Shown here one piece after another: positions 10,176 through 54,273 of a stretch of 64,000 nucleotides of DNA. Both the position numbers and the translations under genes were made by a program. Each line of letters begins with the position of its first letter. Positions within the stretch are counted from its first letter, which is position 1. Below the pieces are notes generated by a model. That model had not been told where the DNA came from. It saw only the letters and a list, made by a program, of their open reading frames with translations, and ran no database searches. The stretch is from Blasia pusilla (Eukaryota): assembly GCA_050084515.1 (NCBI GenBank), contig CM114271.1:40982001-41046000 (forward strand). The letters are read 5' to 3'.

Positions 10176-10177
10176 CG

Positions 10178-20261: not shown

Positions 20262-20435
<174 letters not shown>

Positions 20436-25890: not shown

Positions 25891-28800
25891 CTTAGGAGTA
25901 GTTGAGCCGCGTCATTTGAGGATGACAGATCATAACTGTTACATTGGTGAATCCCATCCCTACCGAGATGGTTGAGGCAGTGGCTGGGGGCAAGACCTGA
26001 GGAGATCGACACACCATGGATGATCGAGAGAGACGCCCTTGAACTTCTTGGGATGTTTTTCTGGTAAGCCGGGAGATGATAGCCACAACATTGAGCGTGG
26101 TTCTAGGTATTGCACGTGGAGGAGATCTGATTTTATAGTTGGTTGTAGGAGAGTAGTCCAATTCTGTTGTTCGAGATGGGGTTGCACCATAACAACCACC
26201 GACATCCGTGCTAGAGAGTCTTACCATAGTCATGATGGAGACTTGGGAGCCAAATATGGGCCCTAAGTTGACAAGAGGAGAGTTGTGCCGCATACATCAG
26301 TTCCTTAGGAGTAATAGGAGTTGTTTTGTATTTAGCATGCATGATTTGGGTACTCTAAAGGGTCCACGGATCCGCACTGAGTTGTCGAGCGACACGACGA
26401 TCTTCCGACGACCCTACAGGTACAGTGATATGGAGAGGGCTCTGTTCAGAGTAGCAGCGAGGACTTGGTTGGAGTAGGACTAGTGGAGATGTCGCATGAA
26501 GAGTATGCATCTGCCACTATCATGCTCGCCAAGAAGGATGTGCATGGCAACTCGACGGATAGGCGGATGTGTGGAGATTACCGACCTATCAATCGGCAGA
26601 CAAAGTTTGATAAGTATGCCATGCCCACCCTTGAGGAGATCTTTGATGCTATTAGGCATGCAAAGGTTTTCAATTTGTTAGATCTTCAAGCCTATACCAT
26701 GAGTTTCCTATCAGATTGGAGGATACGCAAAGACGGTATTTTGGGGCCTTGATCCTCATGGGAAGGATTGCTTGTACTAGTGGCGGTTCTTACCATTTGG
26801 GTTAAAGAACGTCCCAGGTGAGTTTCAGAGGTTCATGGATAGGATCTTGACCAGTCTGGATTTTGCTAGGTATTATATTGATGACATCGTAGTCTTTAGC
26901 GCCATGGTTGAGGAGCATGAGCGACATCTAGAGGAGGTGTTTCGACGATTTTAGTTATATAGGCTGAAGCTACATCCAAGAAAGTGCAAATTCTTCTACG
27001 ACCAGATATATCTTGTCATACGATATATCTAGGGGGCCTTGGTGTGCAGCGGACGAAGGTAGAGAGTATTTCACACATTCCATGCCCTATAGATGCGAGT
27101 CAAGTTCGTGCATTCATGGGATTGGCGGACTTCTATTGACGGTACGTCAAGGGTTTCAGTTTGATTGCAAAGCCGTTGACCTTGCTGACCAAGATGGATC
27201 AGGAGTGGCATTGGGGAGATGAGCAAGAGAGAGCATTTAAGTTGCTCAAGGATCGATTGACGTTTGCGCCCATATTGAGGAGATCGATCAAGGGGCGTCC
27301 TTTCAAGTTGCATACTGATTGGAGCATGTTGGAGCTTGGACTTGTGCTCACCCAATATGACGATGATGGTAAAGAGTTCGTGGTGGCTTGCGCTTGTCGC
27401 TCGAACAATATTGCAGAGGCAAAGTATAGCTCGTGTGAGGGTGAGTGCTTGGCTGTAGTTTGGGTTGTTGCACATTTCAAGTGGTATTTATTCCGCAACC
27501 CCTTTACCATCATTACTAATCATCAATCACTTAAGTGGTTGATGGGGTCCGACAAGCTTACACGGAAGCTTGCGAGGTGGGCTCTTTTGTTGTAAGAGTA
27601 TGACTTCTAGGTGGTGCATAGACTTGGGAACCTCAACCAGGATGCAGATGGTTTGAGCCATAACCCATGCCCGAGTCAGCAAGATGCGACTGGAGTTTGT
27701 TGGCATGGAGAGAGTGATGAGGAGTTGGTGCCAGGATGGCACGCGTCAATCTATTTGGGCTTGTTGGCTATGGAGAGCAAGATTGCTGAGACTTTGATGG
27801 TAAGGTTTGATGGAGAGTCCTTAGATCTAGAGGCCGATGAGGAGACGACAAATGGCCGAGATATTCATGACGATGGAGTGATCTTAGAGAACATGCGTAC
27901 TGATAGTGTCACGACCACAATGGGTGCTAGAGAGTGGAATTGGATCCTACAGCGAGCCTAACATCTCCAATCGGGGGGGGGACACATGTGTTGCGAGTGT
28001 GGGAGGATGGTAGAGTATGTGCAGTGCCTCATCCTTCATAGAGAGGACGTTTGGTGCGTTATGCCCATGAGGAGTTGGGTCATTTTGGAGTGAAGCGGAC
28101 ATATAGCTTGCTTGTCAGAGTGACATTCAACATTAGTTTGTGATCGAATCCAAACATCGTGCAATGCTCCGACTCCATAGTTGCATCCACTTTCGATCAT
28201 GGGTTTAGGTTATAGATGGAGTTTGGATTTTGCACGACCGTTATCTTTGACGGAGCGTCCTAGTCGTTATGTGTTGGTGATAGTCGAGCACTTCTCAAAT
28301 TGGTTAGAGTTGGTTGCATTGCTTGACAAAGCAAGTGAGGGAGTAGCGTATGTCTTCCTAGATCGAGAGTTGAGTCATTAGCGTGCACTAGTTAAGGTGT
28401 GTACAGAGTTTCGCGGGGAGTTTCATGCCTTGCATACGTGATCAGGCGTTTATTGACCATTGGTGGAGAGGGTTGTGCAAACAATGAAAGGAGGATTACG
28501 CAAGTATGGCTTGCAAAGAGGTCACCTAGGAGATTGGGACCTCCAATTGCCGTGGTCGGCGATGGGATACAGATTTGGCAGGTAGCCATCCTTAGCGTCT
28601 TTCTCATCGTACTTGCTACTTTATGGCTGAGAGCCAGATTTACCTGCAACCATTCGTCGAGATGTTGGTGAGGTGTTGAACCTTGATAACCCTGATGTAT
28701 GGATGGGAGCATATTCTGAGAGGGCTGAGTTGTTTGGGAGAGTGATGCCCATGACGTTTGAGAACTTGGCGATTGCGCAACATCATGATACGTAGAGGTA

Positions 28801-29839
28801 TGCGACTATTTGGGGAGGTGGTTATCAATCTATTATCCGGAGGTTTCATCAGGGAGACTATGTCTACTTGCAACGGACAACATCCAAGACGTTGGATGTC
28901 AATGCAAGACGCACCATCTTGAGAGTGCGTGAGATTTTTCCATCTGATATTGTCTTATTAGAGGGACGCGATGGTATGGTTAGGAAGGACCATGTGTGTA
29001 ACTGTACGCCATGTCACCTTCATAACATTGACGATATAGTTGATCCGAGCTTAGAAATAGTTCTTGCAGGCTTACGATATATGTTGTGTGGTTTTGCCGT
29101 AATCAGCCACTATGCTAGTTTGTGATGGATATTCGAGAGGATGGCATATGGCATGTTTGACGCCATCTCTCACTAGGGTTCCTCAGGGACAATGGATGTG
29201 TTCCACATGTACATAGAGTAGGTAGTTCTAGATTATGACTTATGTCTATGACATGGATGACAAGAAGGCGACTAACGATGGGGCCACATAAGCAGTCGGC
29301 CTTTTTTGCTCTTAGCATCCGAGAGATGTAGTCATGGTAGGTAGGGATAGATGGCTATGTGGAGTTAGAGGGACCTACCCACCAGCTAGGGGGACGATTG
29401 GAGAAATTTTTGTACTTCTTGTCTCGTTGTTTGGATACCATGAGTTAGCATGGGATCGTGCGTGTTTGCGTGTATGTTTGTTGAAAGCGATGTATGTTTT
29501 GTAGCGATGTATATACGCACGATAACTATGACGACTTTGAGAATAGATTGGCGAGATCTAGAAGAACACCTTTAGAGATAATGAAGGATAGCCTTATGAG
29601 GTCGAGGATGATCTTCTGAGGCCACAAATAACCTGAGAGAGCATATTTCCCCTTTGCTTCGGCTCATTTGGAGCCATGTAGTGAACATACTATTTTGATT
29701 AAGTTTCTATTTGGAGTATAGTTGACTTTCCACTTTGGGAACTAGCCCTTGACCCGCTACAGCAGGTCAAGAGCCAAGGAGGCGACCTGCGAGCATAGGT
29801 TATCGAGGAGAGAGCTTGGGAGAGGGAAGGGGATATACC

Positions 29840-29957
<118 letters not shown>

Positions 29958-32439
29958 AGAGCTCATTCTCTCTTTGTTGAACCTCTTGGCATGAGGCGGC
30001 GGAGCTATGGTCCTCCTTGCCTTGTGCGTGTAACCCAAGCCTCTCATTAGGAGAGTGGGTTTGGTTTGACATGAGAGAGAGTGCACACCATAGAGAGTTT
30101 GGTGTGAGAAATGATGTGAGATCTACTTGATTTATTGGAGATACTTTGGTACTTCTTGTCTCATTGTTTGGATGCCATGAGTTAGCATGGGATCATGCGT
30201 GTTTGTTAGTATATTTTTTGACAGCGATGTATGTTGTGGAGCGATGTGCATGCGCACAAAAAATTTCCATGTCATTGAATGATGTGACATGGTGACTAGA
30301 ATTATCAACATTAAATCGAATACAACCATGTATCAACTTCACGTAGGAATGAATGACGAGGTCATAGATTCAATCACTATAGATGATGACAAGAATTATT
30401 ATTAGGCTGTCATATAATGCCATATGTAAGTATATCTTTGAATCAATTTGTGACACATAATTGAAATGACTTAGTCATATCAAGAAAAGTCAATAATTTT
30501 ATTAGCCATTAAATATTACAAAATTAGTCATTTTATATGACTTGTCTTTATAACTCTATTAGTCATGTACATGAGTATATCACTCATTGCCCAATGACTA
30601 TCAATAATATTTTATCACTATATTGGATATTTTGATGAGCGTTTGAGTCATTATCTTGATTATATTACTCATTGTTGTGATTATATGAGTCATTATCCAA
30701 TCTGAGTAGTTGTGTCAATCATATGTGAGTGCAAGAGTCATATGTATTATGTTACCATTAATTTAATGTCCTTGTATTAATACAATTAGAAATTCTCTCT
30801 ATCATTTCATTCAGTAACATAAATATAAATCTTATTAGCATATTCATTAGTGAGGATAGATATAATTTGATATCTATTGATTTCTTCACATTTAACTCTA
30901 GCCAAATGATCAAACTTTCAAATGCATCTCCAAGTGTAAGTACAGGAGGATCATTCATTGTGTAATTTGTGTTCAGTTCCTGTCGTTTGTAATTAGATTG
31001 CATTGTATCCTTAGGGTCCACTCTAACCAAACCAAGACCATAATCCTTTCCTCCAAACTTATATTTCCCACTTAAATATGAAACTACGCATGATCCAATA
31101 TTCCAAAATAGCCAATTCAAAATAGAAAGAAAATCGTAAAGGTAGCACCATAAGAAAATTGATAAACTAAAATACCCTCATTCATAACATTGGTGAAGGT
31201 CCATCCACCTATTGGTAAATTCTTTGGTAAATGGTTAAGCCTCACTTGGTTGGGTACCAAAAATAAGAAAAAGAAAATTCACAAAAAAACTCATCCATTA
31301 AAGCTAAATATCCATAAAAGGAACAACCCTTTTCCTTTTAAAAAGTGGGAAGCCTTTTTATTTACCTCGAGATTCTTTTTGTTGAGCACTTTTAGGTCAT
31401 ACTGTCAACCATCTTGGTGGTTGCCTCCACCTTCTTGTTGGTCTTTAGTGAAGTGTGTGTGTGCACTATTGCTTCGTCTATATAACAAAGAAATTGGAAG
31501 TTTGCAATACATAGATAAGCGAAGAAAATTCTCACATTCAACAATCATAAATAAACAAATTTATCTTATCTAAAAATCAATGCAACTGGAATAAATAATA
31601 CAAGGAATAAGAATACGAAGTGGCTGAGAGATGCACCTTGGAAAGTTGTAGTAGTCACTCATTTTGCTTAGTCAGTAATGGTAAGATTTGGATAATCAAT
31701 CTTCTCTTTACCTACGCGAAAGAAAGAGTCCAAATGCCAATAAATATTTTCATGTCTTACTCGACATAATATTTAAATCCTCACAAGAAAAAAATCAGTT
31801 TTCTATGTTCAAATAGAAAATGTAGTTATAAAAATGTATCGAGGATTTAGAGGAGTAACTTTGAATTGCACACTTGATTAGCTCTTACTTCTACTATGGA
31901 CATCCTTATTGTCTATGAAATTTCAAATTCCCTTTCTTAGGCGACTTGTTGGCCTCAATGCCAAGTTGTAAGTTTGTCACAACCTCCTATTCTTCTTGAT
32001 AGAACCATGTACAAGCCACATAAGTACTTAAAAAATAAGCATTTGATGATACCACAAAACCAGAATTTAGAGGTTATATAAGCAATATAACTTACTTTTC
32101 AAAGTTTTTGCATCATCCATGAATACACCATCAATTGATATACTAAAAGTAGTTCTTTCCCACTTAGATCCAATTTGGAGACCCAATTCATAAGTACTTA
32201 TAACTTCTTGGGGATATTTTGAGGAGTGGCCTTAAGACTGCTCCATTTATTTGACTCTCCCATAGGCTACTCTCAATTTGGGACCTAATATCTTGTATAC
32301 CTTCATCCAATTTTCTCTCAACATCATTTAGGTAGGAAGTGAGATCATATTCAACTCCCTATCAAGCCTACAAAAAAACTAACACATTTGAACATGAATG
32401 TTTCTTCCAAGTCTCGTTCTAGCATCTAACTCTCGTTCT

Positions 32440-32718
32440 AACATGGGCATCTATCACCTCTGAATGACACTAATCAATCGACACAAGCGAGTAAATTTCT
32501 CACAGAAACTCTCTCTCATACACTTATGGAATTCATGGATGCTCTGCAACTTCTCAGTTCGTAACCCCTAATAGTGCCTCTGCAACTCTGCAAAGAACTC
32601 AACCACAAGATTGAACCTAGCACAAACCCTACTAGACAATACAACTGCCCCAATCTGACGCATCCCTCCTAGACACTCATTGGTGGTAGAGGAAGTAGCT
32701 CCTCCTCCTCATCTAGAA
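32440..32718 (-). pseudogene. gag fragment of the DNMT-Gypsy family
   Basis: Reverse complement gives RFNLVVEFFAELQRHY*GLRTEKLQSIHEFHKCMRESFCEKFTRLCRLISVIQ, homologous to copy B gag FSPVAEFFKRLKKNYQVVKTEKLRSLHEFERKTGESLREAYTRMQSLISVTQ. Confidence 0.75.
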
Positions 32719-35700
32719 TTCCCAACCCTATTTAAGGAAGGAAGATGGCTTTCCCAAGCCATCTTTCTCATGTTGGGCCATTGGAGCACCTCTCTTGTTA
32801 TGTGTGAGATAAGACCAAGGTGCTAGCGTCTCGATTTCTTGAGAGTACAAGATGGATGAGGCTCGATAGGCCAATGTAAATTGAGGAGAGGAGTTTTAGG
32901 CCCGGTGTGCCATTTTTACTACTCTTTATTTTTACATGAGAAAGATGTTAGGGGGCTTATGAGAATTCGTTGTTTGCAGATAGGCAAGCAAGTTCCCTTG
33001 ATGGGGAGCCCCACATACGCTGGTTGGCATTTTGTTGTCGTTTTCTTGTCCAGAAAGTTGTGCACGGAAGAGCTGCCCGTTTTTCTTCTCAGATCTTGCA
33101 GGGACGGGTGACGAGGGACATCGACAGAGTGGGGATCGGGCAAGAGCGCTTGGGTGCAACGCATAGTATTGTTAGAGGGTCGAGAGAACGACACATAGGA
33201 GGAGTGTCGAGAGAGAAGCATATTCACGGCTTGTAGTTGCCGGGGGGCCATCAAAAGGTGGATAGGGGCTAGGGCATAGCCGCCCAAGGCTAGGGTTAGG
33301 TCGGACAAGGGAGAGGGCAGGGCCGAAGTACGTCGGGAGCCGGACCCGAGAGCCACGAGCCGGGATTCGGGGCCGGACATTAGGGCGTCAAGCCGCGGCC
33401 CTTGGCCGCAATCCTCCTCTCCTCCCCCACCTTTCATTTACTTCCCCCCCCCCCCCCTTCCCCTACATTTAAGGACGTGCATAGGGCACCGTGACGGACG
33501 TGGTAAGGGCATAGTGGATGTGGTGGAGTAAGGGGCATGGGCAACCTGGTAGAGATGGGATAGACGTGGTTGAAAGGGAAGACGTGGTAGGCAAGCCGAA
33601 TGTCGTCCAGGTCATGGTTGACTTAGTCGGGCAATGCAGACGTGGTCAATCGGAAGGACGTTATCATGACCATACGGATTATGTCGTAGAGTATAGTGGG
33701 CTAGTAGAAGCCATACCTTATGTAGGGCCGTAGTGTCTAGATAGAGATGCGGTTTCATACATAGGATTGGGGGTTACTCAGTTGAGGGTGACTTTTCTAG
33801 TAGGGCCCGCTCTTAGGTTGGAGGGTATAGTGTGGAGTGCACTCAAAGAAAAGTAAGTTCTTTGAGTTGAGCCTGTTGCGTTGGGAGTTAGCCTTGGTAG
33901 TGAGTAGAGCTCTTGGCTATGGTGGTTTCCGCAAGCTTCGATCGGGATTCTCCCATCGTGAAGTGGGTTTGACTCCATTGTATGTGATTCTATACGTGTT
34001 TTATGATAGAAGGTCTTTCGCGGATTTCACTCAAAGAACTCGAGTAGATCGATGGTAGCTTCGATCGTAGATCAGTAGGATCTGCTTAAGGCTGATTGTG
34101 TACTCATCCGTGGATGTTCATGGTTTGTGGCCTATGTTGGAGGTATGAATCCGGTGTGTAGTTGGTTGGGAAAGAAGTGCCTTGCTCAGAGCTTTCCAAC
34201 GCGCATTAGATCGCCGGATTTTGTCAAGGGAGCTAGAAGTTATCAGGGATTGAAGATTCTCGTTCGTGTTCGATGGTATTCTAATGTGGAGAGCTTGGAG
34301 TGCGGAAGCTCTGTTGAAGTTCATCCAGATCGGTTGAGAGGTTCCTGTTGCTACCTGTATTTTGATCTCATGTGAAGCTATCTTCTTGAGTCTATGGAGC
34401 GTTGCGGATTTTTGTGTGCATGAATCTGGGCGGAAGCGCTGTCAGATTTCTGATTCTGGAGGTGTATGGAGAGCAAGTTTGTCTGATTTCTAGCTAGAAG
34501 TACAGAGCTTGGTTGTAGCTGATGTTTTGTGGAGAGATAGCTATGGTGGCTAATTGAATTCAGGTCGAAACAGATTTAATTTTGGTTGAGGATTTGTGGA
34601 GTAATTGTTGATCAAAATTTTTCGGACTAGCTCAAGGTCTGGCTATGGTAGACAACAGATCGGAGGGGTTGGTTGGTTGGTGACTCATCCATTGTTGGAG
34701 ACGCCTATCCCATTGGGGGCGCCCTGGTTGGGTATCTCTCCATAGTGAAGCATGGTGAAGCGTGGCGAAGCGTGGCGAACGGGGCAATAGGGGCATATCG
34801 GCGAGTGGGCGAGTGGGCGTGAGAGGCGGAGTAAGGAGCAAGGAGCAAGCAATCAAGCTTGCTTGCTTGGGCGTGAGGCAGTTTTTGCAAGATTTGTGAG
34901 TTGAGTGTTTAACTGCTGAGTTCTTAACTATGCCAGTATACACACTCGTGTAGCTCATTTGGTGTTGTTTGAAGATGTGTTGGGCGCTTTATGCATCTTG
35001 GGTTTTCGGTTGATGGACCTCTAGCGCATAGTACGGTGTAACCTCTCCATGCACATGATATTTTCAGGTGCTACGAGTGCGACTAGCACGTCATCGACCA
35101 GCGGCGGAGTAGCTATTGCATTAGAATTGTGTGGTGAGGTGTGTGGATTCAAGGGGCGCCAGGTTTGGTGGATTGTGTTACCTTGATTTCCATTTGCGAT
35201 TGGAGGGTTGTTGTTGGACTTCCGGTGTTTGGATCCCCTTCATTGTTGCTTCTTGCTTGCGCGCCCATTGTTAGGGTTGACGCTGATTTCCAGAGTAGTT
35301 TTACTCCTGTGTGCTACCGGTAGTGAGGCTGGAGTGATGACCAGAAGACCGTGGGAGGCTTCTTGTGGTGATGACAGGTTAGGTTGCCTACACCCATAGC
35401 TAGTAGAGCTAGAATAGTACAACGATATCGACGTCACTTGGTTACTTAGTGGTGGTGATTTTGTGGTGGTGCGGCATCAGCGTTGGTCATCACGGAGGTG
35501 TCTGGTGGTCTGGTTGGGGACTGTGGTGCGGACAATGGTGGTTTTACACAGAGTGGATTGAGGTATCGGCTACCTTTTCCACTTTCGACGGTTGATGAAG
35601 AGAAGGACGAGGGTGTTCCAAACACCGAGTCTTCTACGTTGTTATCGTATGTTGCAGCTCCATTGATTTGGGACATGGACGGGATATATGGGCCATAAAG

Positions 35701-37753
35701 GGCCCACGACAATACTCGAGCGCAGTGGGTTCCATTGAGTTGGAGGACTTCATTCAGGAGTTTGATACGTGGTGTGATATGCAGATGTTGCGGAACGCCA
35801 CATTGTTTACAGCCTTCTTGGCTTGGAAGGGGTTGTTTTAGCACTTGGAGGGACCATCCATGGACAATTACCATGAGTTTAGGAAGGACCATGTTGCTGA
35901 GATTGAGGTGTGGAGACAATATTGGTCTCGAGGCTATGTGTCTATCACCCATGGTCGTATTGGTAGTAGTGCTCCTACTATGCTAGCCAGCCCGACGTTG
36001 AGTGGTACGAGTACGAGCCGGATTGGGGGTACAAGTGGAGGTACCCATGGAGGTACCAGTGGAGGTACTAGTGCCCCACCATCATTCAGCCCGGTTGCAG
36101 AGTTCTTCAAAAGGTTGAAGAAGAACTATCAGGTAGTGAAGACAGAGAAGTTGAGGAGTCTTCACGAATTCGAGCGAAAGACTGGTGAGAGTCTTCGTGA
36201 GGCATACACTCGTATGCAAAGCTTGATTTCAGTTACCCAGGGTGTGATGGAGGCTCAAGCAGTCCAGTTTTGGTATGGGATCCTGGACAGAGAGTTGCGC
36301 CGTAGGGTACGTGATGCTACTCTTATGAGTGATGATTCACCCACATTGACCCATGTGTTTGCTCAATCTAAGAAGATTGAGCTTAACATGGTGGAGATGA
36401 GAGTGGTGACATCTGCATTCAGTAGGGATACAACTACTACTTCTCGTGTTCAGCAGTCCACCTCACAGTCTCATAGTAGTGGTGATGGTAGTAGTAGTGG
36501 GAGTCGTGGGGGTTACACACGACCTCAATTAGGTCCTAGAGGGACACTTGCGCAGAGACCATTGCCTTCATTTGCTGCCCCGCAACAAGGATAGTCATGT
36601 TGGACATGTCGAGGTGATCATGTTAGGAGGTTTTGTCCAAAGTCCGTCTCCTATCCTCTTGGAGACGGACTTTGGACGATGGGCCTCAGTTGGCCCCAAC
36701 TCAGTGTGATCATTGTAGGAGACCACGTCATCCTCGAGAGCGTTGCTTTGATCTTCATCCAGAGTTAAGATCAGGACGTGGCCGTGGTGGAGTAGCTCCA
36801 AGAGGCCGATGTGGTAGAGGTGGTAGAGGGCAACCCTCTATGTGAGGTGTAGCATTGAGTACTAGTGCTACTTGGCAGGCAGCAGCGGCGAAGATGGATG
36901 CATTACCAGCCCGACCAGCCATTGATTGTGAGAGGCTTACACCTAGTGTATGTATGTTGGACAATCGGAGTGGGATATTTCGATTGGTGAGTCCTACAGG
37001 ACAGGTGTATAGACCAGATAGAGTCTTGTTAGACTCTGGTGCCCAACCTTTGATGTTGGGAAAGGCGGCATGTATTGGTTTGGGTATTCAGAGGTCAGAG
37101 CTTGAGCCTTGCCCATTCCAGATTCAAACATCACTTGGAGGAGCCAATGATAGGTCTCAATTCATGACACAAGAGAAGTTGGCTGTACAGTTGAGACTAG
37201 ATCATGCGACTGATAGCTCCCGGTTGGGAGTACCTGCAGTGGTCACATTAGCCGAGTCGTATGATGTACTAGTTGGACGAGCAGTATTGTACCCTATGGT
37301 TTTTCAGATGGACTATTGGACTCAGACAACGTCTTATAGACCTGGTTGGCAGTCCGGGGATGGACGTATGAGCCAGGTTCTGTCGGATTTATTTATGGGG
37401 CTTGACCAGGAGGGTCTTCCCCAACGGTGTAAGCATATGTGGCTGGTTTTAGTGGAGAAGTCACTTGGCCAAGAGACTTTTTAGAGGGTAATCTTTCTGC
37501 TATGGATTCTCCTGTGCATGAGGAGGTAGAGGAGGTCCCTAGTTTTGCATCAGTGGCATCCTCATCGTTGGATGTGCCACTTTGGAGTTCACGCGGTGCA
37601 CTACGGTAGGAGGCTGATTGCCTAGTGTAGGAGGCTTGGTGTGAGGTTGTTATACCTCACGAGGAAGAGGAGGCCCCACGGCGGACTCCTACTTCTGGTC
37701 TTGTTGGGTTATCCCCTTTGGATACTACACCCATTGTATGGCAGTATCCGCCG

Positions 37754-38675
37754 AAGGGCATTTGTATGTTAGATCTCTTTGGTGGGATTAGCACTGATTT
37801 GGCTGCACTGTTGCAGGCCGGTATTCCTGTGCGGAGATACGTGTATGTGGAGCAAGATGAGACGGCCCATAGAGTCTCATCCCGACATATTGGTCAGTTG
37901 ATGCGGAGATATCCTGAGTTTTTCCGTCATCAGCTATTCGTGGGTACCAACGCGCTTTGTCGTCACACATTGCATTGTTGGGGGCGCAGGACTTTGAGAG
38001 GGATGGCTTGTGGATTTGGCGATTTCAGGATGCCCATGTCAGGGTCATACATGTGTTGGTCGTGGTGAGGGATTACAGGACCCTAGGTCTCGATTGTTTT
38101 GGGAGATGTTATGAGTGTTACGACATCTTCAGGTTCATGTGGCACGTGCTCTAGCTTACATTCTGTAGAATGTTCCATTGTTGGGTGACACTAGGACCCG
38201 GATGATGGCGAGTGTTCATGAGGTGCGGTCTTGGATTGGACCAGCGTGTTGTTGGATACAGCGCGAGTTGGCTTGCGTGCACATTGTCCATGCTTGTGGT
38301 GGAAAAACTTGTTGCCTAGGGAGGTTCTACGTCGAGCATATGATGCAGTGCAGCAGGATAGTATCTTGGATACTGGGCGACTTTCTCAGGTGGTGAGGGT
38401 TATTGATCAGTCACCCATGGTAGTGGTGAACCGTGTGGGCCAGCCTAGGATGGCACTACCCACAGTTATGAGTTTTCCCTCGTCACATGCCTACAGGGAA
38501 GGTGGTCCCGGGCTTGTATGGGATTCTCATGTGCGATAGTTGGTGGAGCCTAACGCTGATGAGAGAGAGCGTGCGATGGGATTTGCTACTGGTGTGACAG
38601 CGATCGCTTCCATTTATGAGGCTTCACGACGTCATGTGTTGGGTCAGGCCATGGACCTGAATTGTTGACCTGGCT
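37754..38675 (+). pseudogene. DNMT3-like C5 cytosine methyltransferase domain, copy B (catalytic PC intact; frameshifts and stops elsewhere)
   Basis: I GICMLDLFGGISTD; II YVYVEQD; IV VDLAISGCPCQG (PC at 38034-38039)...DPRSRLFWEM; VI AYIL*NVP; VIII AHCPCLWWKNLLP; IX/X EPNADERERAMGFATG...SRRHVLGQAMDLN. Confidence 0.92.
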
Positions 38676-40895
38676 TTTGAGTCTTGGTATGGCCGAGCAG
38701 CGTCGACTTCGGACTATGTCTATGGGTCTTCCACCCCTTGTGATGAGCTCGATGGCTACGAGGACTATAGAGACATCGGCTGAGGGCAAGGAGAATAGTA
38801 TTTTGCATCCTTGGAGTAAATGGGATGTAATGGCTGGGCATGTGGAGTTGGTTGCTCATGCTGGTGGAGGAGTTATTTGCTTAGATGATGGTGTAGCTAA
38901 GGGTGTACCATCTTCTGAGGGGGTTGCATAGTAGCCAATGGCGTCATCCTCTCCCTTTAGTGTGCCAGTGGAGGAGACTTGGGAGCCATTACTTGGGCCT
39001 AAGCTTAGGGGAGGTGAGAAACGACGCTTGACACAGTTCCTACGTGCTTATAGGAGTTGTTTTGCCTTTAGCATGAAGGAGTTGGGTGCTTTGGTTGGAC
39101 CCGGTATACGGATTGATTTGGCTAGTGATTCGCCAATCTTCCGTCGTCCCTACCGATATAGTGATATGGAGAGGGACCTGATTCAAAGTAGGACGTTGGA
39201 CCTTTTGGAGGCTGGATAAGTGGAGTTTTCGCATGGAGAGTATGCATCAGCCACTGTCATGCCTGCTAAAAAGGATGTGCATGGCAACTACACGGATAGG
39301 CGGGTGTGTGGAGATTACCGTCCTATCAATCGGCATACCAAGGCCGATAGGTATGCCATGCCTACACTTGAGGAGATCTTTGATCTGGGACAGGCAAAGG
39401 TTTTCAGAACTTTGGATCTTCAGACAAGATACCATCAGTTGCCCATTCGAGAGAGTGACAAGGCCAAGACAGCATTTTGGGATGTCAACTCTCATGGCAA
39501 GGATTGTTTGTACTAGTGGAAATTCTTACCCTTTGGGTTGAAAAATGCACCTGCCGAGTTTCAAAGAGTGATGGACAGGATCCTAGCAGGGTTGGATTTT
39601 GTTCGGTGTTACATTGATGATATCTTGGTGTTCAGTGATATGGTGGAGGAGCATCAGATACATTTGCAGATTATGTTTGAGCGGCTGAAAGCTCATGGTC
39701 TACGTTTGCACCCAGGAAAGTGTAAGTTCTTCCATGAGGATGTTGAGTACTTGAGTCATGTGATCTATCAAGGTGGTTTGGGAGTTCAGCAAGCAAAGGT
39801 GGAGGCTACTGCACTTATTCCTCGTCCGGTAGATGTGAGTAGAGTTTGAGCATTCATGGGATTGGCGAACTACTATCGGAGGTATATGAAGGGATTTAGT
39901 CCTATGGCAAAGCCTTTGAACCTATTGCTGAAATTAGATCAGGATTGGCACAAGGGAGATGATTAGGAGAGAGCTTTTGTGGAGCTCAAGGCCCAGTTGG
40001 TGGCGGCGCCTATCTTGAGGAGACCTATCAGAGGGCGCCCATTTCAGTTACACATTGATTGGAGTAGGTTGGGACTTGGAGCGGTGTTGACACAACATGA
40101 TGATGAGCACATGGTTTTTGTGGTGGCCTATGCAAGTTGTTTGAATAATGCAGCGGAGTTGCGCTATAGTTCATATGAGGGAGAGTGCTTGGCAGTAGTG
40201 TGGGTTGTGGCACACTTTAGGTGTTACTTGTTTGGCACAGTTTACCCTTATTCTCGATCACCAGCCGCTCAAGTGGTTGATGGAGTCTAACAAGCTTACA
40301 GGGAAGCTTGCACGGTGGGCTCTTATCTTACAGGAGTATGACTTCCAGGTGGTACATAGACCGTGAGTTGCCAACCTTGATGCTGATGGATTGAGTAGGA
40401 ACCCATGTACTAGCCAAGAGGATGCAACTGGGGCTAGATGGCATGGCGAGGTTGATGAGGAGATAGTGCCAAGTTGGCATGCATCTGCCTTTTTATGTTG
40501 GTTAGGGGTGGACTCTAGTATGGAGGACCACATGACATCTTACTCTAGTCATACGGTAGATGGCCAGCCTTCAGATCCTAAGGTTGGAGATGGTGGTATA
40601 GATCAGCATGATATTCATGATAATGCGTTGGTGTTGGAGTTTCTACAGACCAGTAGGGTGCCAGACATAGTGAGTGCCAAGGAGCGAGACCGTGTTCTTC
40701 AACGTGCTAAGAGGTATCAATTGGAGGGAACACATATTCCCCATGTATGGGAGGATGGTAGAGTACGAGTAGTGCCGCATTTGGCTCAAAGAAAGCGCAT
40801 TGTGCGACATACCCATGAGGAGTTGGGACATTTTGGGGTAAAGCGTACGTATAGCTTACTTCTTGGTCATTTAGTGCGTTTATTGGTGGCGTGGC

Positions 40896-42044
40896 ATGCA
40901 TACTCACGTGCAACAGTTGGTTTGTGACCGGGTGAGTGGCCCTACACCACAGTTACACCCCTTGCCTATTATGGGGTTGGGTTACCGTTGGAGTGTGGAC
41001 TTTGCGGTACCGTTACCGTTGACTGTACGACATCATCGATATGTGTTGGTGATAGTGGAGCACTTAACCAAGTGGATTGAGTTGGTGGCATTATCTGACA
41101 AGGTAAGTGAGGGAACGGCGTATGCGTTTCTTGATAGAGTGCTTAGTCATTTTGGTGCACCAGCTGAAGCGCTAACCGACCAGGGTACAAAGTTTCAGGG
41201 TGAGTTTCAGGTCTTGTGTGACAAGGCCTTGATTGATCATCGGACCACGTCTCGAGATCATGCAGAGGCGGAGGGTTTGGCTGAGCGTGTGGTTCAGACG
41301 GTGAAGAGGGCATTGCGCAAGTATGGCCTACAGAATGGGTATCTTGGAGACTGGGATATTCAGTTGCCATGGTTAGCCATGGTTAGCCATGGGTATAGGT
41401 TCAATCGCCAAGCATCCTTGGTTTCCTTCTCACCTTATTTTCTATTATACGGCCGAGATCTAGACTTGCCAACACCAATTCATCGGGAGTCTATTGAGTT
41501 GGTGAACCTTGATGACCTAGAGATGTGGATGATAGTGTGTTCTCACCGGGCAGAGCTCTTACGGAGAGTTATGCCAACAACCTTTGAGAATCTTGCCATT
41601 GCTCAACAAAGGGATACGTTGCGGTATGCAACCATTCAGGGTGGAGGTTATCGACCATCGATTTGTAGGTTCCATGTGGGGGACTATGCCTATTTGCAAC
41701 AGATTGCACCGACAACGTTGGATGTGACGGCAGGCCGCACTATTTTACGAGTGCGCGAGGTGTTAGCTTCTGGAGTTCTCATGTTGGAGGGTCATGATGG
41801 AGTTGTTTGGAAGGACCATGTGCGTAATTGTGCGGCATGTCATCTTCCAAATGTGGATGGTAGTATTGACCCAAGCTTAGCCATGATACGTGCTAGCTTG
41901 AGGTGCATGTTGTGTAGGTCTGCTGGTAACGCGGCCCGTATGTTGGTGTGTGATCGTTGTTCTAGGGGTTGGCACATGATGTGTTTGACTCCACGTATGG
42001 ATGTTGTTCCTACAGGAAGGTGGGTTTGTCCTCGATGTACTTAG
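40896..42044 (+). CDS. Gypsy DDE integrase core with C-terminal PHD finger (open segment of copy B pol)
   Basis: WSVDFA...LTDQG...GLAERVVQTVK (D,D,E). Ends in CMLC...MLVCDRCSRGWHMMCLTP..VPTGRWVCPRC, a C4HC3 pattern. Confidence 0.88.
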   Translation: MHTHVQQLVCDRVSGPTPQLHPLPIMGLGYRWSVDFAVPLPLTVRHHRYVLVIVEHLTKWIELVALSDKVSEGTAYAFLDRVLSHFGAPAEALTDQGTKFQGEFQVLCDKALIDHRTTSRDHAEAEGLAERVVQTVKRALRKYGLQNGYLGDWDIQLPWLAMVSHGYRFNRQASLVSFSPYFLLYGRDLDLPTPIHRESIELVNLDDLEMWMIVCSHRAELLRRVMPTTFENLAIAQQRDTLRYATIQGGGYRPSICRFHVGDYAYLQQIAPTTLDVTAGRTILRVREVLASGVLMLEGHDGVVWKDHVRNCAACHLPNVDGSIDPSLAMIRASLRCMLCRSAGNAARMLVCDRCSRGWHMMCLTPRMDVVPTGRWVCPRCT

Positions 42045-48078: not shown

Positions 48079-50148
48079 AACAACGGGTCTGGTGACGAGA
48101 TTGCAGACGGAGAGTGTCACTTGGGAGGAGATAGACGACATGGGCCTCGAGGCATGCGTCGTTTCTCAGGTGTAACAGGCACCATCGACTTAGATGACTT
48201 CATCCAAGAGTTTGACACCTGGTGCGATTTCCAAGAGATACGGACCCCGACACGGTTCAACCCTTTTATGACATGGAAGGGGTTTTTCTAGCACTTGGAG
48301 GGTCCTCCGATGGATGATTACATGGATTTTTTATCACTGTATTCAGTAGAGATTGATGCTTGGAGGATGTATTGGGCTCCAAGGTATGTGTCCACTAGTG
48401 ATCGTGAGGCATATGATGGGATCGTGACAGGAGAGAGACCCACACCATTAGCCCGGAGACTAGATGGAGAGGAGGGCAGAAAGACAGACGATGTGGCAGA
48501 GACCTCAGTCCCATAGTGGAGTTCTTCTGATAGTTGGGGAAGAGCTACCAAGGCATACGCATCGACAAGTTGAAGAGTCTACAGGATTTTCAACAACGAT
48601 TGGGTGAAAGTCTCAAGGAGGCATTCACACGCATGAAGAGGCTGGTCATTGCTACTTATGGAGTGACTAAGGCGTAGTCAGTCTAGTATTGGTGCGGGGT
48701 TTTGGACCGAGAACTACGGAGGAGAGTCCAAGATGCGGTGTTGATTCACACAGCAAAGCCCACATTGAACGTGGTCTTCGAGTTGTCTGAGCGTATTGAG
48801 CTCAACATGAGTGAGGAGCAGGTAGTGACCACTGGCTTTTCTTGAGAGTCCACGAGCAACGGTAACCCCACAGGTGCCAGAGTGAGCACCAGTACCACGG
48901 GAGCAGGCTAGTGGGCCCAGAGAGCAGGGCAAGTACAGTGAGCCTATGAGGCAATGACTTGTACCTACATATGTTGCCCAGTAGGGACCAATGTTATCTT
49001 GTTCGACATGTGAAGGGGCCCATAGGCAAAGAGATTTCCCACAGCATGGGAGAGGACCACGAGCGCCTCCGATTGCTCAAGAGGCACAAAGGATAGATAG
49101 CCCTAATGTGACCATATTTGTGCCATAAATTTGGTCACACTACGGATAGATGTTTTGACCTTCGTCGAGAAGAATGTCTAGAGGTAGGCGGAGGGTTTAG
49201 GGGCGGTCGTCTTGGAGGAGGTCGAGGAGTTGTTGTTGGATGTGGTGGTAGAGGACCACCACCTTCTAGAGGAGATGAAGTGGGAGCACTAGTGACGGCG
49301 CTTGTCTCGCGCAACGATCAGTTGGAGTAGAGGATTTCTGCCATGACGATGATGCAGGTCAGGGAAGGCATAGAGTCGAGAGTAGCTAGTGTGACTCCAG
49401 CTTCCACCTCTTACCTTGACCCGATGAGGATCTCCCTAGTATGGGGTTTACGTGTAGTGCGGCTTAGGTTGAGGCTGCTGCGGTGGTGACTCGAGGTGCT
49501 GCAAGAGGCACTAAGCCATCGAGAGGTGGAGTTGAGATTGACTCATCGGAGGGGACCGATGGACGGCAGACCACGGTTCCATAGTCGTTCACGTTGTCAA
49601 AGGCACTACACACACCATTCATGGTGCATCAACGACCAGTGGTGCCTTCAAGTCAGGCAGGTGCATCGACATAGCGAGGAGTTGGAGTGGCGGCTCCTAT
49701 GCCGACTCGAGTGGAGTCTGTGTCGACCATAGTGTTGGAAGTGGCCACGAGGGTGAGTCAGGCTCCGTTATTCTCCGCCATAGAGTTGGCGACATTGGGA
49801 GTTGGACCAGTTGAGGTGTTCTAGCTAACCGCCACGTTGTGTGAACGTGGAGAGGTGAGTTCACACAACTCTCATTCAAAGGTAGTTGAGGAGGTGGTGG
49901 ACTTGCTTGGAATAGGTGCTCGGGACGTCCCCCACAAAGTCATGGCATGCGGCAGCGACAAAGTTGGTAGATATACCAGCTCGATCCAATCACCTGACCT
50001 GCTACAGAGGAGTGCCGATGACCTCGTGAGGTAGGCGTGGAGTCATGCCTTTATCTCGAAGCAACGAGAGTCAGGTGGCGATCGAGCTCGTGGGGTGGAG
50101 ACGTTGACACCATTGGATACCATAACTGTTGTGTGGTAGTATCCAGAG

Positions 50149-54000: not shown

Positions 54001-54273
54001 GTGAGGTATTACCAACTGTAGTCCTCATGTTGGAGGGACGAGATGGTGTGGTTTGGAAGGATCATGTGCGCAAGTGTGCGCCATGTCACCTTCTAAACAT
54101 GGACGAGATAGTGGATCCGAGCTTGGCAATGATACCTGCATGCTTGAGATATATGTTGTACGGATCTAGGTGGGTGCAGCCACCATGTTGGTACATGATG
54201 GTTGTTCTCAAGAGTGGCATATGTCATGTTTGACCCCCCCCCCCCCCTCCCCCCTCTTGATATAGTTCCCACG

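What the first reader, a model, noticed from the sequence alone, without database searches (positions are those of the whole stretch)
37754..38675. Gypsy family encoding a DNMT3-like cytosine methyltransferase between protease and RT
Seen: the same ~310-codon domain sits directly upstream of RT in four copies (24947, 37754, 50149 on +; 57079 on -), and downstream of protease where protease survives (A, B). C5-MTase motifs are in canonical order: I (VLDLFGGI), II (acidic), IV (G-x-PCQ, intact in copy B), VI (ENV), VIII (AH-x-x-x-LWWTNL), IX/X (ERExAMGF...R..LG.AM). Knowledge: this resembles the DNMT3 catalytic domain (IRVLSLFDGIATG, DLVIGGSPC, RLFFEF, ENV, AHRARYFWGNL, MERVFGFP, RQRLLGRSW). DNMT-carrying retrotransposons have precedent in dinoflagellates and charophyte algae; I am not aware of a characterised land-plant family. 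Inference: the enzyme is a stable part of pol, probably packaged and released by the protease, and could pre-methylate the cDNA or the insertion site. All copies here are dead.
Basis: partly seen in the sequence, partly recalled or inferred. Interest (0 to 1): 0.93.

Follow-up and report, generated by a model that had tools for sequence, protein, structure and literature searches.

The report
Liverwort retrotransposon carrying a DNMT3 methyltransferase
Four dead copies of a jumping gene that carries its own DNA-methylating enzyme, the kind of enzyme hosts use to silence such elements, sit in this window, and they belong to a land-plant branch of a family known so far only from an alga.

Summary
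A ~330-codon domain lies upstream of RT in four decayed copies (A 24923-25921, B 37697-38742, C 50092-51106, D 57079-56102 minus).

- **Identity.** It is a real DNMT3-type C5 cytosine methyltransferase. Relatives pass Pfam PF00145. A family profile hits DNMT3A at E 1.6e-21. A confident fold model matches only DNMT3A/B/C at the top.
- **Selection.** Mismatches between copies concentrate at third codon positions, as in RNase H and integrase.
- **Relatives.** The closest named ones are liverwort gene models (Marchantia polymorpha, Calypogeia fissa). More distant ones come from Sphagnum, Closterium and Haematococcus.
- **Expression.** Close relatives, not these copies, give sense-strand RNA reads in the source organism.

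- A conserved in-frame stop, mostly UAG-CAA-CYN, separates gag-protease-DNMT from RT-RNaseH-integrase. The enzyme therefore ends the upstream ORF and probably depends on readthrough to be fused to pol.
- Integrase ends in a PHD finger.
- The terminal repeats are split (A-coding-B-A-B), the layout reported for KnitGypsy-Dnmt3 of Klebsormidium.

This is a new land-plant member of a known kind. I found no description of it in print. Function is untested.

The parts
20078..20606 (+). Copy A, 5' terminal repeat A1. It contains a (GA)n microsatellite.
   Evidence: It matches 29658-30134 by BLAST (83.6% with gaps). Ungapped stretches are 95-96% identical, with about 7% mismatches.
22523..23328 (+). 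Copy A, gag-like region
   Evidence: tblastn of Marchantia P0167 residues 4-360, 37-57% identity
23973..24752 (+). Copy A, protease-like region (VLLDSGTQPLMLG)
   Evidence: tblastn of P0167 residues 546-805, 42.6% identity; ORF 24246-24611. Pfam does not detect a protease here.
24923..25921 (+). Copy A, DNMT3-like domain. It is in a single frame with 4 in-frame stops. The catalytic PCQ and the AHRxR motif are decayed.
26190..26192 (+). Copy A, conserved in-frame stop (TAA, followed by CAA CCA) between the DNMT tail and RT
26244..27988 (+). Copy A, RT and RNase H
   Evidence: tblastn of P0169; Pfam RT_RNaseH E 1.6e-28 on ORF 27140-27595
29030..29213 (+). Copy A, decayed PHD finger at the end of integrase
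   Evidence: tblastn with copy B's PHD segment, E 1e-12
29397..29520 (+). Copy A, repeat B1, just upstream of the 3' copy of repeat A
   Evidence: 86.3% identical to 30134-30257
29658..30134 (+). Copy A, 3' terminal repeat A2
30134..30257 (+). Copy A, repeat B2, abutting A2. No B copy lies next to A1.
35692..36920 (+). Copy B, gag with a CCHC region
   Evidence: tblastn of P0167 residues 7-410, 47-62% identity; weak Retrotrans_gag match, E 0.0038
36858..37379 (+). Copy B, protease-like region (VLLDSGAQPLMLG) in an open 212-codon ORF
   Evidence: 74% identical to P0167 residues 580-753. No Pfam hit. The fold model was unusable. Aspartyl protease is detected at this position in more distant relatives.
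37697..38742 (+). Copy B, DNMT3-like domain (the finding's 37754-38675 lies inside). It has 4 frame changes and 3 stops. PCQ is intact.
38932..38934 (+). Copy B, conserved in-frame stop (TAG, preceded by a second TAG) before RT
38980..40738 (+). Copy B, RT and RNase H
   Evidence: 71% identical to P0169 residues 696-1066; RVT_1 E 5.9e-22
40875..42044 (+). Copy B, integrase core plus a C-terminal PHD finger (41856-42041) in an open 389-codon ORF
   Evidence: Pfam rve E 6.1e-11 and PHD E 3.9e-10
48148..48896 (+). Copy C, gag
   Evidence: tblastn of P0167 residues 9-260
50092..51106 (+). Copy C, DNMT3-like domain, with 1 frame change and 5 stops. ENV is intact.
51338..51340 (+). Copy C, conserved in-frame stop (TAG CAA CCA)
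51371..54237 (+). Copy C, RT, RNase H and integrase, with PHD remnants at 54102-54229
54661..55423 (+). Copy C, 3' repeat zone: B1' at 54661-54802, an A-type repeat ending at 55286, and B2' at 55288-55423
   Evidence: B1' and B2' are 83.8% identical. 55072-55286 is 86.5% identical to 32719-32933.
55411..57079 (-). Copy D, a truncated copy. DNMT is at 57079-56102, the conserved stop TAG CAA CTA at 55860-55858, and an RT fragment runs to 55411.
58621..59114 (-). Repeats of types A and B upstream of copy D
   Evidence: They match copy A's 29531-29854 and 30132-30262 at 73-74% identity.

Best explanation
**What is shown**

The window holds four decayed copies of one old Ty3/Gypsy-type retrotransposon family of a liverwort-like host. 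The coding layout is gag (CCHC) - aspartyl-protease-like region - DNMT3-type C5 cytosine methyltransferase - about 90-codon tail - conserved in-frame stop - RT - RNase H - integrase - PHD finger. The element is bounded by split direct repeats: A1, coding region, B1, A2, B2.

The methyltransferase is a real DNMT3-family domain with unrearranged motifs. Its catalytic residues are kept in intact relatives, and it evolved under purifying selection like RNase H and integrase. Close relatives in the same organism give sense-strand RNA reads, and they do not share copy B's frame breaks.

**What is inferred**

- The main translation product is Gag-protease-DNMT. A minority of ribosomes read through the leaky UAG-CAA-CYN stop and add RT-RNaseH-integrase-PHD. 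The enzyme would then be made at Gag level, not at pol level (about 0.6).
- The protease frees the enzyme inside the particle, where it methylates the new cDNA or the fresh insertion. The copy would then enter the genome already marked like host DNA or self-limited, as proposed for the algal and dinoflagellate elements (about 0.35).
- The PHD finger steers integration by reading histone H3 tails (about 0.3).

**Lineage**

The family is most likely the land-plant branch of the streptophyte Gypsy-DNMT3 lineage first seen as KnitGypsy-Dnmt3 in Klebsormidium (about 0.7).

The overall confidence given here is for the shown part, that is identity and anatomy.
For: **C5 methyltransferase.** Relatives pass Pfam PF00145 (cut-off 22 bits): P0009 63.7 bits, P0025 46.1, P0252 42.7, P0164 40.8, Marchantia P0167 35.6.

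**DNMT3 type**
- A profile of 12 family members searched against PDB sequences puts DNMT3A first (E 1.6e-21, 79.8 bits). DNMT3B/3C follow at about 1e-19 to 1e-20, tobacco DRM at 5.9e-15, DRM2 at 5e-11, M.HhaI at 5e-10 and DNMT2 at 3e-7. No DNMT1 is listed.
- The AlphaFold model of the relative P0252 (pLDDT 88.5) gives only DNMT3A/B/C among the rows listed through rank 49 by Foldseek, with best E 2.9e-19 and TM 0.84.

**Catalytic residues.** The Q of PCQ, the E of ENV and one of the two motif VIII arginines are invariant in 23 relatives. The catalytic Cys and the other arginine are kept in at least 90%.

**Selection**
- In nucleotide alignments between copies, DNMT mismatches by codon position 1/2/3 are .285/.150/.454 (A-B), .299/.169/.494 (A-C) and .275/.146/.462 (C-B).
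- RNase H (A-B) gives .190/.184/.456 and integrase gives .241/.160/.482.
- The non-coding terminal repeats show no third-position excess.093/.057/.070.
- Ka/Ks for the DNMT domain is 0.15-0.54.

**Layout.** Copy B is collinear with Marchantia P0167 (gag-protease-DNMT) and P0169 (DNMT-RT-RNaseH).

**Conserved stop**
- A stop sits at the same codon in 4 of 4 copies; 3 of 4 are followed by CAA CCA or CAA CTA.
- Seven relatives' predicted proteins end at that place.
- 38 of 51 evaluable metagenome loci (of 80 fetched) have the stop there: 28 TAG and 10 TAA. In 36 it is followed by CAA-CYN, and in 37 RT is in the same frame.
- UAG-CAR-YYA is the type I leaky-stop signal of plant viruses (passages read in PMC3542737).

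**PHD finger.** Pfam E 3.9e-10 in copy B. It is found in 3 window copies and in 25 of 80 loci.

**Split repeats.** They are seen in copy A and in the 3' zone of copy C, and in 4 of 5 evaluable metagenome loci. No B copy lies beside A1 in the two loci tested. The Klebsormidium element is described with that same repeat layout (figure legends read in PMC5890265).

**Placement.** Copy A falls in a 10-row liverwort clade with SH-aLRT 99.

**Expression.** In three RNA runs of the same organism, 1956, 1684 and 2068 reads were laid. Nearly all are 90-99% alike, only 3-5 per run reach 99% or more, and nearly all have the first mate on the minus strand. Depth is about 20-190.
Against: - The window's own copies score just under Pfam's cut-off (21.8 against 22 bits). 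The identification leans on relatives.
- No tree with host DNMT3, DRM, CMT or MET1 reference sequences could be built, and no Klebsormidium sequence was retrieved (none is named). Both the DNMT3 clade placement and the link to KnitGypsy-Dnmt3 are therefore indirect.
- The protease is not detected by Pfam in the liverwort clade. The PDB profile search gave only chance-level hits, and the fold model was unusable (pLDDT 32).
- Readthrough is not shown. The metagenome relatives have CAA-CCC, which departs from CAR-YYA at the last base. Copy B has CCA after its stop. One distant relative (P0025) has a single 2188-residue ORF with no stop there.
- I did not see whether the expressed relatives keep the stop; that part of the read table was not shown.
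- No target-site duplication or primer-binding site was recognised at copy A's ends.
- Copy D has A and B repeats upstream of its coding part, which the simple split-repeat scheme does not predict.
- Enzyme activity is untested. In the 2018 paper one retrotransposon DNMT (SymbioLINE) failed to methylate DNA in yeast (passage read).
- CpG depletion in the copies (o/e 0.56-0.67) is no different from the surroundings (0.37-0.70).
Confidence: 0.85

Rival explanations
1. The domain is a catalytically silent DNMT3L-like adaptor. It binds or diverts the host's own de novo methyltransferases and writes no methylation itself.
For: DNMT3-type domains form oligomers with inactive partners; several top fold matches are DNMT3A-DNMT3L complexes. 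No activity has been measured.
Against: The catalytic Cys-Gln, ENV and the motif VIII arginines are invariant or nearly so across 23 relatives, and they are present in Marchantia P0167. A silent adaptor would be free to lose them.
Confidence: 0.1
2. The enzyme acts on host chromatin around the insertion site, not on the element's cDNA. It would work together with the PHD-tipped integrase to build or join heterochromatin where insertions are tolerated.
For: A PHD finger is conserved at the integrase C-terminus in 3 window copies and in 25 of 80 related loci. It is also present in most algal relatives. All copies in this window lie in a nest of other repeats.
Against: If the conserved stop works as inferred, most DNMT molecules are made without integrase or PHD. 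This argues against a fixed DNMT-integrase machine. There are no methylation data.
Confidence: 0.2
3. The enzyme methylates RNA, either the element's genomic RNA or a tRNA primer, as DNMT2 does and as was suggested for the LINE-borne DNMT of Symbiodinium.
For: It is made with Gag, which binds the RNA genome (layout). The 2018 paper raises RNA methylation for an element whose DNMT did not methylate DNA in yeast (passage read).
Against: The profile match to DNMT2 (E 3e-7) is 14 orders of magnitude weaker than to DNMT3A. The fold matches DNA-bound DNMT3 structures. According to the same paper, the DNMT3-type enzyme of the DIRS elements did methylate CG in DNA.
Confidence: 0.08
4. The methyltransferase-like stretch is a host gene fragment or an unrelated insertion that lies by chance beside retrotransposon genes. 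It is not part of the element.
For: Single fragments gave no Pfam hit. The region is a mosaic of nested repeats.
Against: The domain has the same position and orientation in four copies that are only 67-74% identical. It is collinear with single predicted proteins in Marchantia and with a 2188-residue uninterrupted ORF in a metagenome relative. The codon-position pattern matches the rest of the coding region. 80 related loci have the same order.
Confidence: 0.01

Closest known systems
KnitGypsy-Dnmt3 of Klebsormidium nitens (de Mendoza et al. 2018, PMC5890265; passages and figure legends read, figures and supplements not seen)
   Same: - An unrearranged DNMT3-type domain sits inside the coding region of a Gypsy-type element that has an integrase.
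- The DNMT is under purifying selection. The paper reports Ka/Ks below 0.2; here it is 0.15-0.54, with a third-position excess.
- The repeat layout is 'the same as that of a DIRS retrotransposon', that is A-coding-B-A-B. That is what copy A, copy C's 3' zone and 4 of 5 related loci show.
- The host is a streptophyte.
   Different: - The hosts here are land plants (liverwort clade; also Sphagnum).
- The paper's text says the DNMT is in the Pol polyprotein ORF. Here a conserved stop puts it at the end of the gag-protease ORF.
- The paper's text does not mention a PHD finger (0 occurrences).
- The domain order of the algal element could not be compared, because the figure is not held.
- No Klebsormidium sequence was retrieved, so kinship is inferred rather than measured.
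Animal DNMT3A/3B/3C catalytic domains
   Same: They are the best sequence-profile match (E 1.6e-21) and the best fold match (E 2.9e-19, TM 0.84). Motif order is the same, including the DNMT3-style AHRxRxxWxN motif VIII.
   Different: There is no PWWP or ADD domain. Sequence identity is about 20-23%. The domain is embedded in a retrotransposon polyprotein. The only chromatin reader in the element is a PHD finger, at the far end of integrase.
Plant DRM2 / tobacco DRM
   Same: They come from the same DNMT3 superfamily and are the host's de novo methyltransferases in plants. The profile match is E 5.9e-15 to 5e-11.
   Different: DRM has circularly rearranged motifs. In one search the match maps profile positions 9-141 to DRM residues about 229-351. 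The element's domain has the straight order I to X.
SymbioDIRS-Dnmt3 of Symbiodinium
   Same: A DNMT3-type domain is carried by a retrotransposon with split direct repeats.
   Different: Those elements use a tyrosine recombinase and belong to DIRS. This family has a DDE integrase (Pfam rve) and the Gypsy domain order.
Algal relatives with the order RT-RNaseH-DNMT-integrase-PHD (for example Haematococcus lacustris gene models P0125 and P0207, and many metagenome proteins)
   Same: They carry the same DNMT3-like domain family (27-33% identity), the same PHD finger after integrase and a Gypsy-type pol.
   Different: Their DNMT lies between RNase H and integrase, not between protease and RT. On the DNMT tree the two layouts separate cleanly (SH-aLRT 99).
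Type I leaky stop of tobamoviruses (UAG-CAR-YYA; Firth and Brierley 2012, PMC3542737, passages read)
   Same: A UAG or UAA stop is followed by CAA CCA or CAA CTA in 3 of 4 window copies, and the downstream enzyme ORF is in frame.
   Different: This is a retrotransposon, not an RNA virus. The metagenome relatives have CAA-CCC. Readthrough was not measured.

Membership tests
C5 cytosine DNA methyltransferase (Pfam PF00145) | Significant match to the family profile | tested here: met
   The window copies alone are borderline: A 21.8 bits and C 16 bits against a cut-off of 22. Relatives at 33-55% identity pass: 63.7, 46.1, 42.7, 40.8 and 35.6 bits.
C5 cytosine DNA methyltransferase (Pfam PF00145) | Conserved motifs I, IV (PCQ), VI (ENV), VIII, IX and X, in that order, with the catalytic Cys | tested here: met
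   The order is visible in the alignments and in the DNMT3A alignment. The Q of PCQ, the E of ENV and one motif VIII Arg are invariant in relatives; the catalytic Cys and the other Arg are kept in at least 90%. In the window only copy B keeps PCQ, and only C and D keep ENV.
DNMT3 family | Closer to DNMT3 than to any other methyltransferase family by sequence profile | tested here: met
   DNMT3A E 1.6e-21, against DRM 5.9e-15, M.HhaI 4.9e-10 and DNMT2 2.9e-7. DNMT1 is not listed.
DNMT3 family | Fold closest to DNMT3 catalytic domains | tested here: met
   The model has pLDDT 88.5. All rows listed through rank 49 are DNMT3A/B/C.
DNMT3 family | Placement inside the DNMT3 clade on a tree with reference DNMT1, 2, 3, 4, 5, 6, DRM, CMT and bacterial sequences | not tested
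   No reference sequences could be obtained. The tree holds retrotransposon domains only and is unrooted.
Ty3/Gypsy LTR retrotransposon | pol order protease - RT - RNase H - integrase | tested here: met
   RVT_1 E 5.9e-22, RT_RNaseH 1.6e-28 and rve 6.1e-11, in that order. The layout is collinear with P0169.
Ty3/Gypsy LTR retrotransposon | Retropepsin-type aspartyl protease | tested here: inconclusive
   A DSG motif and a conserved 180-residue block are present. There is no Pfam hit in the liverwort clade, no PDB hit and the fold model was unusable. Among seven more distant relatives with the same layout, 1 passes the cut-off (P0066, 34 bits) and 5 of 7 hit at E<=0.01.
Ty3/Gypsy LTR retrotransposon | Two plain long terminal repeats with a target-site duplication, primer-binding site and polypurine tract | tested here: not met
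   Direct terminal repeats exist (A1/A2). However, an extra repeat B flanks only the 3' copy. No target duplication, TG..CA ends or primer site was recognised. The decay of the copies limits this test.
KnitGypsy-Dnmt3-like elements (streptophyte Gypsy-DNMT3) | DNMT3-type domain inside a Gypsy-type coding region | tested here: met
KnitGypsy-Dnmt3-like elements (streptophyte Gypsy-DNMT3) | DIRS-like split direct repeats (A-coding-B-A-B) | tested here: met
   Seen in copy A, in copy C's 3' zone and in loci L013, L051, L058 and L065, that is 4 of 5 evaluable. The paper's legends were read.
KnitGypsy-Dnmt3-like elements (streptophyte Gypsy-DNMT3) | Sequence kinship with the Klebsormidium copies (one clade for DNMT and for RT/integrase) | not testable with these tools
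   No Klebsormidium protein appeared by name. Supplements are closed.
Programmed stop-codon readthrough, type I | Conserved in-frame stop with the downstream ORF in the same frame | tested here: met
   4 of 4 window copies. 38 of 51 loci have the stop at that place, and in 37 RT is in the same frame. Seven protein C-termini fall there.
Programmed stop-codon readthrough, type I | CAR-YYA directly after the stop | tested here: inconclusive
   It is exact in copies A, C and D. Copy B has CCA ATG. 34 loci have CAA-CCC and one each has CAA-CTC and CAA-CCT, so the last base is not A.
Programmed stop-codon readthrough, type I | Measured readthrough product | not testable with these tools
   This needs a reporter assay or ribosome profiling.

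The most novel reading that the evidence does not exclude
Land plants harbour a living retrotransposon lineage, young and transcribed in a liverwort, that makes an active DNMT3 enzyme in Gag-like amounts by placing it upstream of a leaky stop. The enzyme is packed into the particle, where it methylates the element's own cDNA before a PHD-guided integrase inserts it. New copies would then arrive already carrying the host's silencing mark. Such elements could also have been a source or a sink of DNMT3 genes during bryophyte evolution.
Probability: 0.2. Interest if true: 0.85.

Novelty: new member of a known kind. Interest (0 to 1): 0.6.

Why it matters
Cytosine methylation is the host's main weapon against transposons, so a transposon that carries the weapon itself is a paradox. 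That paradox has been described only in a charophyte alga and in dinoflagellates, neither of which is easy to manipulate.

This family puts the same paradox in liverworts. The closest named relatives are near-identical Marchantia polymorpha gene models with an open gag-protease-DNMT frame. Relatives give sense-strand RNA reads in the window's own organism.

That makes the open question testable in a plant with good genetics and methylome tools: what does a retrotransposon gain from its own de novo methyltransferase?

The conserved stop, the PHD finger and the split repeats give concrete handles: enzyme dosage, targeting and replication mode. The wide spread of the domain family suggests the phenomenon is much commoner in green plants than the literature states. 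There were 987 hits in a library of one representative per 50%-identity cluster, with two different positions inside the element.

Tried and rejected
**Searches on the window copies alone**
- Pfam on 16 stop-free ORF fragments gave no methyltransferase hit; 9 of them overlap the domain. The domain is too broken, so I moved to read-throughs with X at stops.
- phmmer of copy C against PDB sequences gave only M.HaeIII at E 0.24. The family profile was needed.

**Resources that were closed or absent**
- No whole genome is held for this window.
- The sequencing-run index listed no RNA holder. The raw-read RNA runs of the same species label were laid instead.

**Protease**
- The profile of 9 sequences against PDB gave only chance-level GAPDH hits.
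- The fold model from the same shallow alignment had pLDDT 32 and was not searched.

**Signatures and element ends**
- CpG and CWG depletion as a footprint of methylation: the copies (CpG o/e 0.56-0.67) do not differ from the background (0.37-0.70). This is uninformative.
- Terminal repeats of copy B: none found between 30258-35900 and 42000-49000.
- Target-site duplication and primer-binding site of copy A: not recognised.

**Host organism.** A protein-atlas look-up of a flanking exon gave only the domain type, carboxypeptidase-regulatory-like, with no taxon. Run labels are coded. The host is inferred as liverwort-like from the relatives only.

**Klebsormidium.** No protein named from it appeared. 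Those searches score only the 8000 candidates sharing most words, so this is not evidence of absence.

**Literature**
- No paper holds any of six Marchantia gene identifiers.
- Only the 2018 paper holds phrases such as 'DNMT-encoding retrotransposon'.
- One 2026 preprint holds 'LTR retrotransposon', 'methyltransferase domain' and 'liverwort' together, but it concerns adenine methyltransferases.

**Slips and unused tools**
- One search was a script syntax error, rerun.
- exceeded a size limit, rerun smaller.
Full report
**1. What is in the sequence**

Three-frame reading and a tblastn of the methyltransferase domain of the Marchantia protein P0167 show the same ~330-codon domain four times.

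| Copy | Coordinates | Strand | State |
|---|---|---|---|
| A | 24923-25921 | + | one frame, 4 stops |
| B | 37697-38742 | + | 4 frame changes, 3 stops |
| C | 50092-51106 | + | 1 frame change, 5 stops |
| D | 57079-56102 | - | 4 pieces |

The finding's coordinates lie inside copy B. The copies are 67-74% identical in DNA, so they are old and all dead. PCQ survives only in B, and ENV survives in C and D.

**2. Is it a methyltransferase, and which kind?**

The decayed copies by themselves are borderline.
- Stop-free fragments gave nothing in Pfam.
- Read-throughs with X at the stops gave PF00145 at 21.8 bits for A (cut-off 22) and 16 bits for C.

Relatives settle the question.
- phmmer of copy A against 1.84 billion representative proteins gave 987 hits at E<=1e-3 and 463 at <=1e-10. 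The best was 1.1e-60.
- Relatives pass Pfam clearly, at up to 63.7 bits.
- A profile of 12 members against all PDB sequences ranks DNMT3A first (E 1.6e-21). DNMT3B/3C follow, then the rearranged plant DRMs (5.9e-15 to 5e-11), M.HhaI (5e-10) and DNMT2 (3e-7). DNMT1 does not appear.
- An AlphaFold model of a 55%-identical relative (pLDDT 88.5) finds only DNMT3A/B/C among the rows listed through rank 49 by Foldseek (E 2.9e-19, TM 0.84).
- The Q of PCQ, the E of ENV and one motif VIII arginine are invariant among 23 relatives. The catalytic cysteine and the other arginine are kept in at least 90%.

The 'DNMT3-like' reading is therefore supported by sequence and by fold. I could not build a rooted tree with reference families.

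**3. Was it a working part of the element?**

Nucleotide alignments between copies are free of any amino-acid bias. In the DNMT domain they show mismatches of about .28/.15/.46 at codon positions 1/2/3. RNase H gives .19/.18/.46 and integrase gives .24/.16/.48. The terminal repeats show no third-position excess, at .06-.09.

Nei-Gojobori Ka/Ks on protein-guided codon pairs is 0.15-0.54 for the DNMT domain and 0.15-0.63 for RT-RNaseH and integrase. Ks is saturated and the guide favours low Ka, so the codon-position result is the safer one.

The domain evolved as coding sequence under constraint while the lineages of these copies were alive.

**4. Anatomy of the element**

Copy B is collinear with two Marchantia gene models. 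P0167 covers gag with CCHC knuckles, a DSG-containing protease-like block and the DNMT. P0169 covers DNMT, RT and RNase H.

Pfam finds RVT_1, RT_RNaseH, rve and a C-terminal PHD finger (E 3.9e-10) in the window. The PHD finger recurs in copies A and C and in 25 of 80 related loci.

The protease is only probable. It has a conserved block with DSG, but no Pfam, PDB or usable fold support in this clade. More distant relatives with the same layout do hit aspartyl-protease families at that position. One of seven passes the cut-off and five of seven hit at E<=0.01 (also P0025).

**5. A conserved stop between the enzyme and RT**

All four copies have an in-frame stop at the same codon, about 13 codons before the conserved ETWEP start of the RT region.

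| Copy | Stop and following codons |
|---|---|
| A | TAA CAA CCA |
| B | TAG TAG CCA |
| C | TAG CAA CCA |
| D | TAG CAA CTA |

Seven relatives' predicted proteins end exactly there: Marchantia P0167, P0168 and P0172, Calypogeia P0165, and unnamed P0164, P0166 and P0264. Marchantia gene models that reach RT skip this stretch, as if the gene predictor needed an intron to get past it.

Of 80 related metagenome loci, 51 held both sides of the junction.
- 38 have the stop at that place (28 TAG, 10 TAA).
- 36 of those are followed by CAA-CYN.
- In 37 the RT match is in the same frame.
- The other 13 hit earlier stops in decayed frames.

UAG-CAR-YYA is the classical leaky-stop signal of tobamoviruses and other plant viruses (passages read in PMC3542737).

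I infer that ORF1 is gag-protease-DNMT and that RT-RNaseH-integrase-PHD is made by readthrough. The enzyme would be made with every Gag molecule, in excess over RT and integrase. Readthrough itself was not measured. One distant relative (P0025) has a single 2188-residue ORF.

**6. Split terminal repeats**

Copy A is laid out as follows.

| Segment | Coordinates |
|---|---|
| A1 | 20078-20606 |
| coding region | between A1 and B1 |
| B1 | 29397-29520 |
| spacer | 137 nt |
| A2 | 29658-30134 |
| B2 | 30134-30257 |

B1 and B2 are 86% identical, and no B copy lies beside A1. Copy C's 3' zone repeats the pattern (B1' 54661-54802, A-type repeat ending at 55286, B2' 55288-55423).

Among 23 metagenome loci of 9 kb or more, 6 showed an A1/A2 pair around the coding region. 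Of the 5 with sequence beyond A2, 4 have B1 and B2 flanking A2. The two loci tested had no B next to A1.

The 2018 paper describes exactly this arrangement for its DIRS elements. [quoted passage not shown]

This shared oddity is my main reason, besides the DNMT3 domain, to place the family in the same lineage. Copy D does not fit the scheme neatly, because A and B repeats lie upstream of its coding remnant.

**7. Relatives and spread**

Named relatives fall into three groups.
- **Closest (43-56% identity to the decayed copy A):** 16 Marchantia polymorpha gene models (14, two more) and Calypogeia fissa.
- **More distant:** Sphagnum fallax and several Closterium strains.
- **Different layout:** Haematococcus lacustris and most metagenome proteins have the order RT-RNaseH-DNMT-integrase-PHD.

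I built a quick maximum-likelihood tree of 64 DNMT domains.
- Copy A was the only window row.
- Partial domains were dropped.
- Unnamed rows of unclear layout were dropped.
- The second layout was thinned at random from 125 rows to 42.

The tree separates the two layouts with SH-aLRT 99 and puts copy A in a 10-row liverwort clade with support 99. In that tree the six Marchantia domains are nearly identical (branches 0.004-0.07), which points to recent activity there.

**8. Expression**

Three stranded RNA runs carrying the same coded organism label as the best DNA holder were laid on 36800-39900 at 80% likeness or more.
- 1956, 1684 and 2068 reads were laid.
- Only 3-5 reads per run were 99% or more alike. 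Most were 90-99% alike.
- Depth was about 20-190, from 6-12% of each run.
- Nearly all reads had the first mate on the minus strand, which in most stranded libraries means sense RNA.

The reads therefore come from closer-to-intact relatives, not from copy B, and those relatives do not share copy B's frame breaks. I only observe this and give no repaired reading. A DNA run of the same organism laid 63,878 contig pieces on the stretch. This shows a repeated family but is not a copy number.

**9. Literature**

- The precedent is de Mendoza et al. 2018 (PMC5890265; abstract, passages and legends read).
- A 2025 paper (PMC12344493, passages read) and a 2026 preprint (10.64898/2026.05.21.726589, passages read) still cite only 'streptophytes (Gypsy-DNMT3)' from that work.
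- Searches for six Marchantia gene identifiers found nothing.
- Searches for phrases naming DNMT-bearing retrotransposons found only the 2018 paper.
- Searches combining Marchantia, DNMT3, Gypsy and retrotransposon found nothing relevant.
- Supplements were closed and may hold bryophyte sequences.

I conclude that the land-plant family is undescribed in the text I could search. Its proteins are nevertheless public as 'hypothetical'.

**10. Verdict**

- This is a new land-plant member of the known streptophyte Gypsy-DNMT3 kind. It has three added features worth following up: the leaky-stop placement of the enzyme, the PHD-tipped integrase and the split repeats.
- What the enzyme does remains inference.

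Noticed in passing
window 32719-32933 against 55072-55286: A 215-nt stretch upstream of copy B is 86.5% identical to the A-type repeat at copy C's 3' end. The B and C coding regions are only 67-70% alike. It may be the missing 5' repeat of element C, with copy B and another element nested inside it. It may also reflect recombination. This is unresolved.
   Followed up: partly
window 32466-32756 (-): An isolated gag fragment of the same family lies on the opposite strand (37.5% identical to P0167 residues 84-184). It overlaps the stretch above.
   Followed up: no
window 3880-11197: A different LTR element has 1031-bp terminal repeats that are 96.5% identical. Its CpG o/e is 1.05, unlike everything else in the window. 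Its genes were not analysed.
   Followed up: no
window about 42700-47400 (+): Another retroelement-like stretch begins just after the end of copy B's homology (42217). It includes an ORF with a CCHC knuckle at 43297-43482. It probably removed or displaced copy B's 3' repeats. It was not tested against any library.
   Followed up: no
window 61020-63861 (-): These look like exons of a host gene with carboxypeptidase-regulatory-like (NOMO-type) repeats (ORFs, atlas look-up). This is the only clear non-repeat gene seen.
   Followed up: partly
window 20230-20440 and 29840-29955: A long (GA)n microsatellite sits inside both copies of repeat A of element A, with different lengths. This lowers the gapped BLAST identity of the repeats to 83.6%.
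   Followed up: no
stored proteins, e.g. P0010, P0016, P0183, P0125, P0207: A much larger set of relatives places the same DNMT3-like domain between RNase H and integrase and also ends in a PHD finger. 78 of 250 stored proteins show the full order RT-DNMT-INT-PHD, and more show parts of it. One Haematococcus gene-model pair is named. The rest come from metagenomes.
   Followed up: partly
window 57077-57337 against 58188-58436: A 71%-identical direct repeat lies within the region upstream of copy D's DNMT. It is unexplained.
   Followed up: no
window 20001-58000 (+ strand): There is a strong positive GC skew (0.18-0.30) over the plus-strand copies and a negative skew over copy D. The coding strand of this family is therefore G-rich over C. 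The cause was not examined.
   Followed up: no
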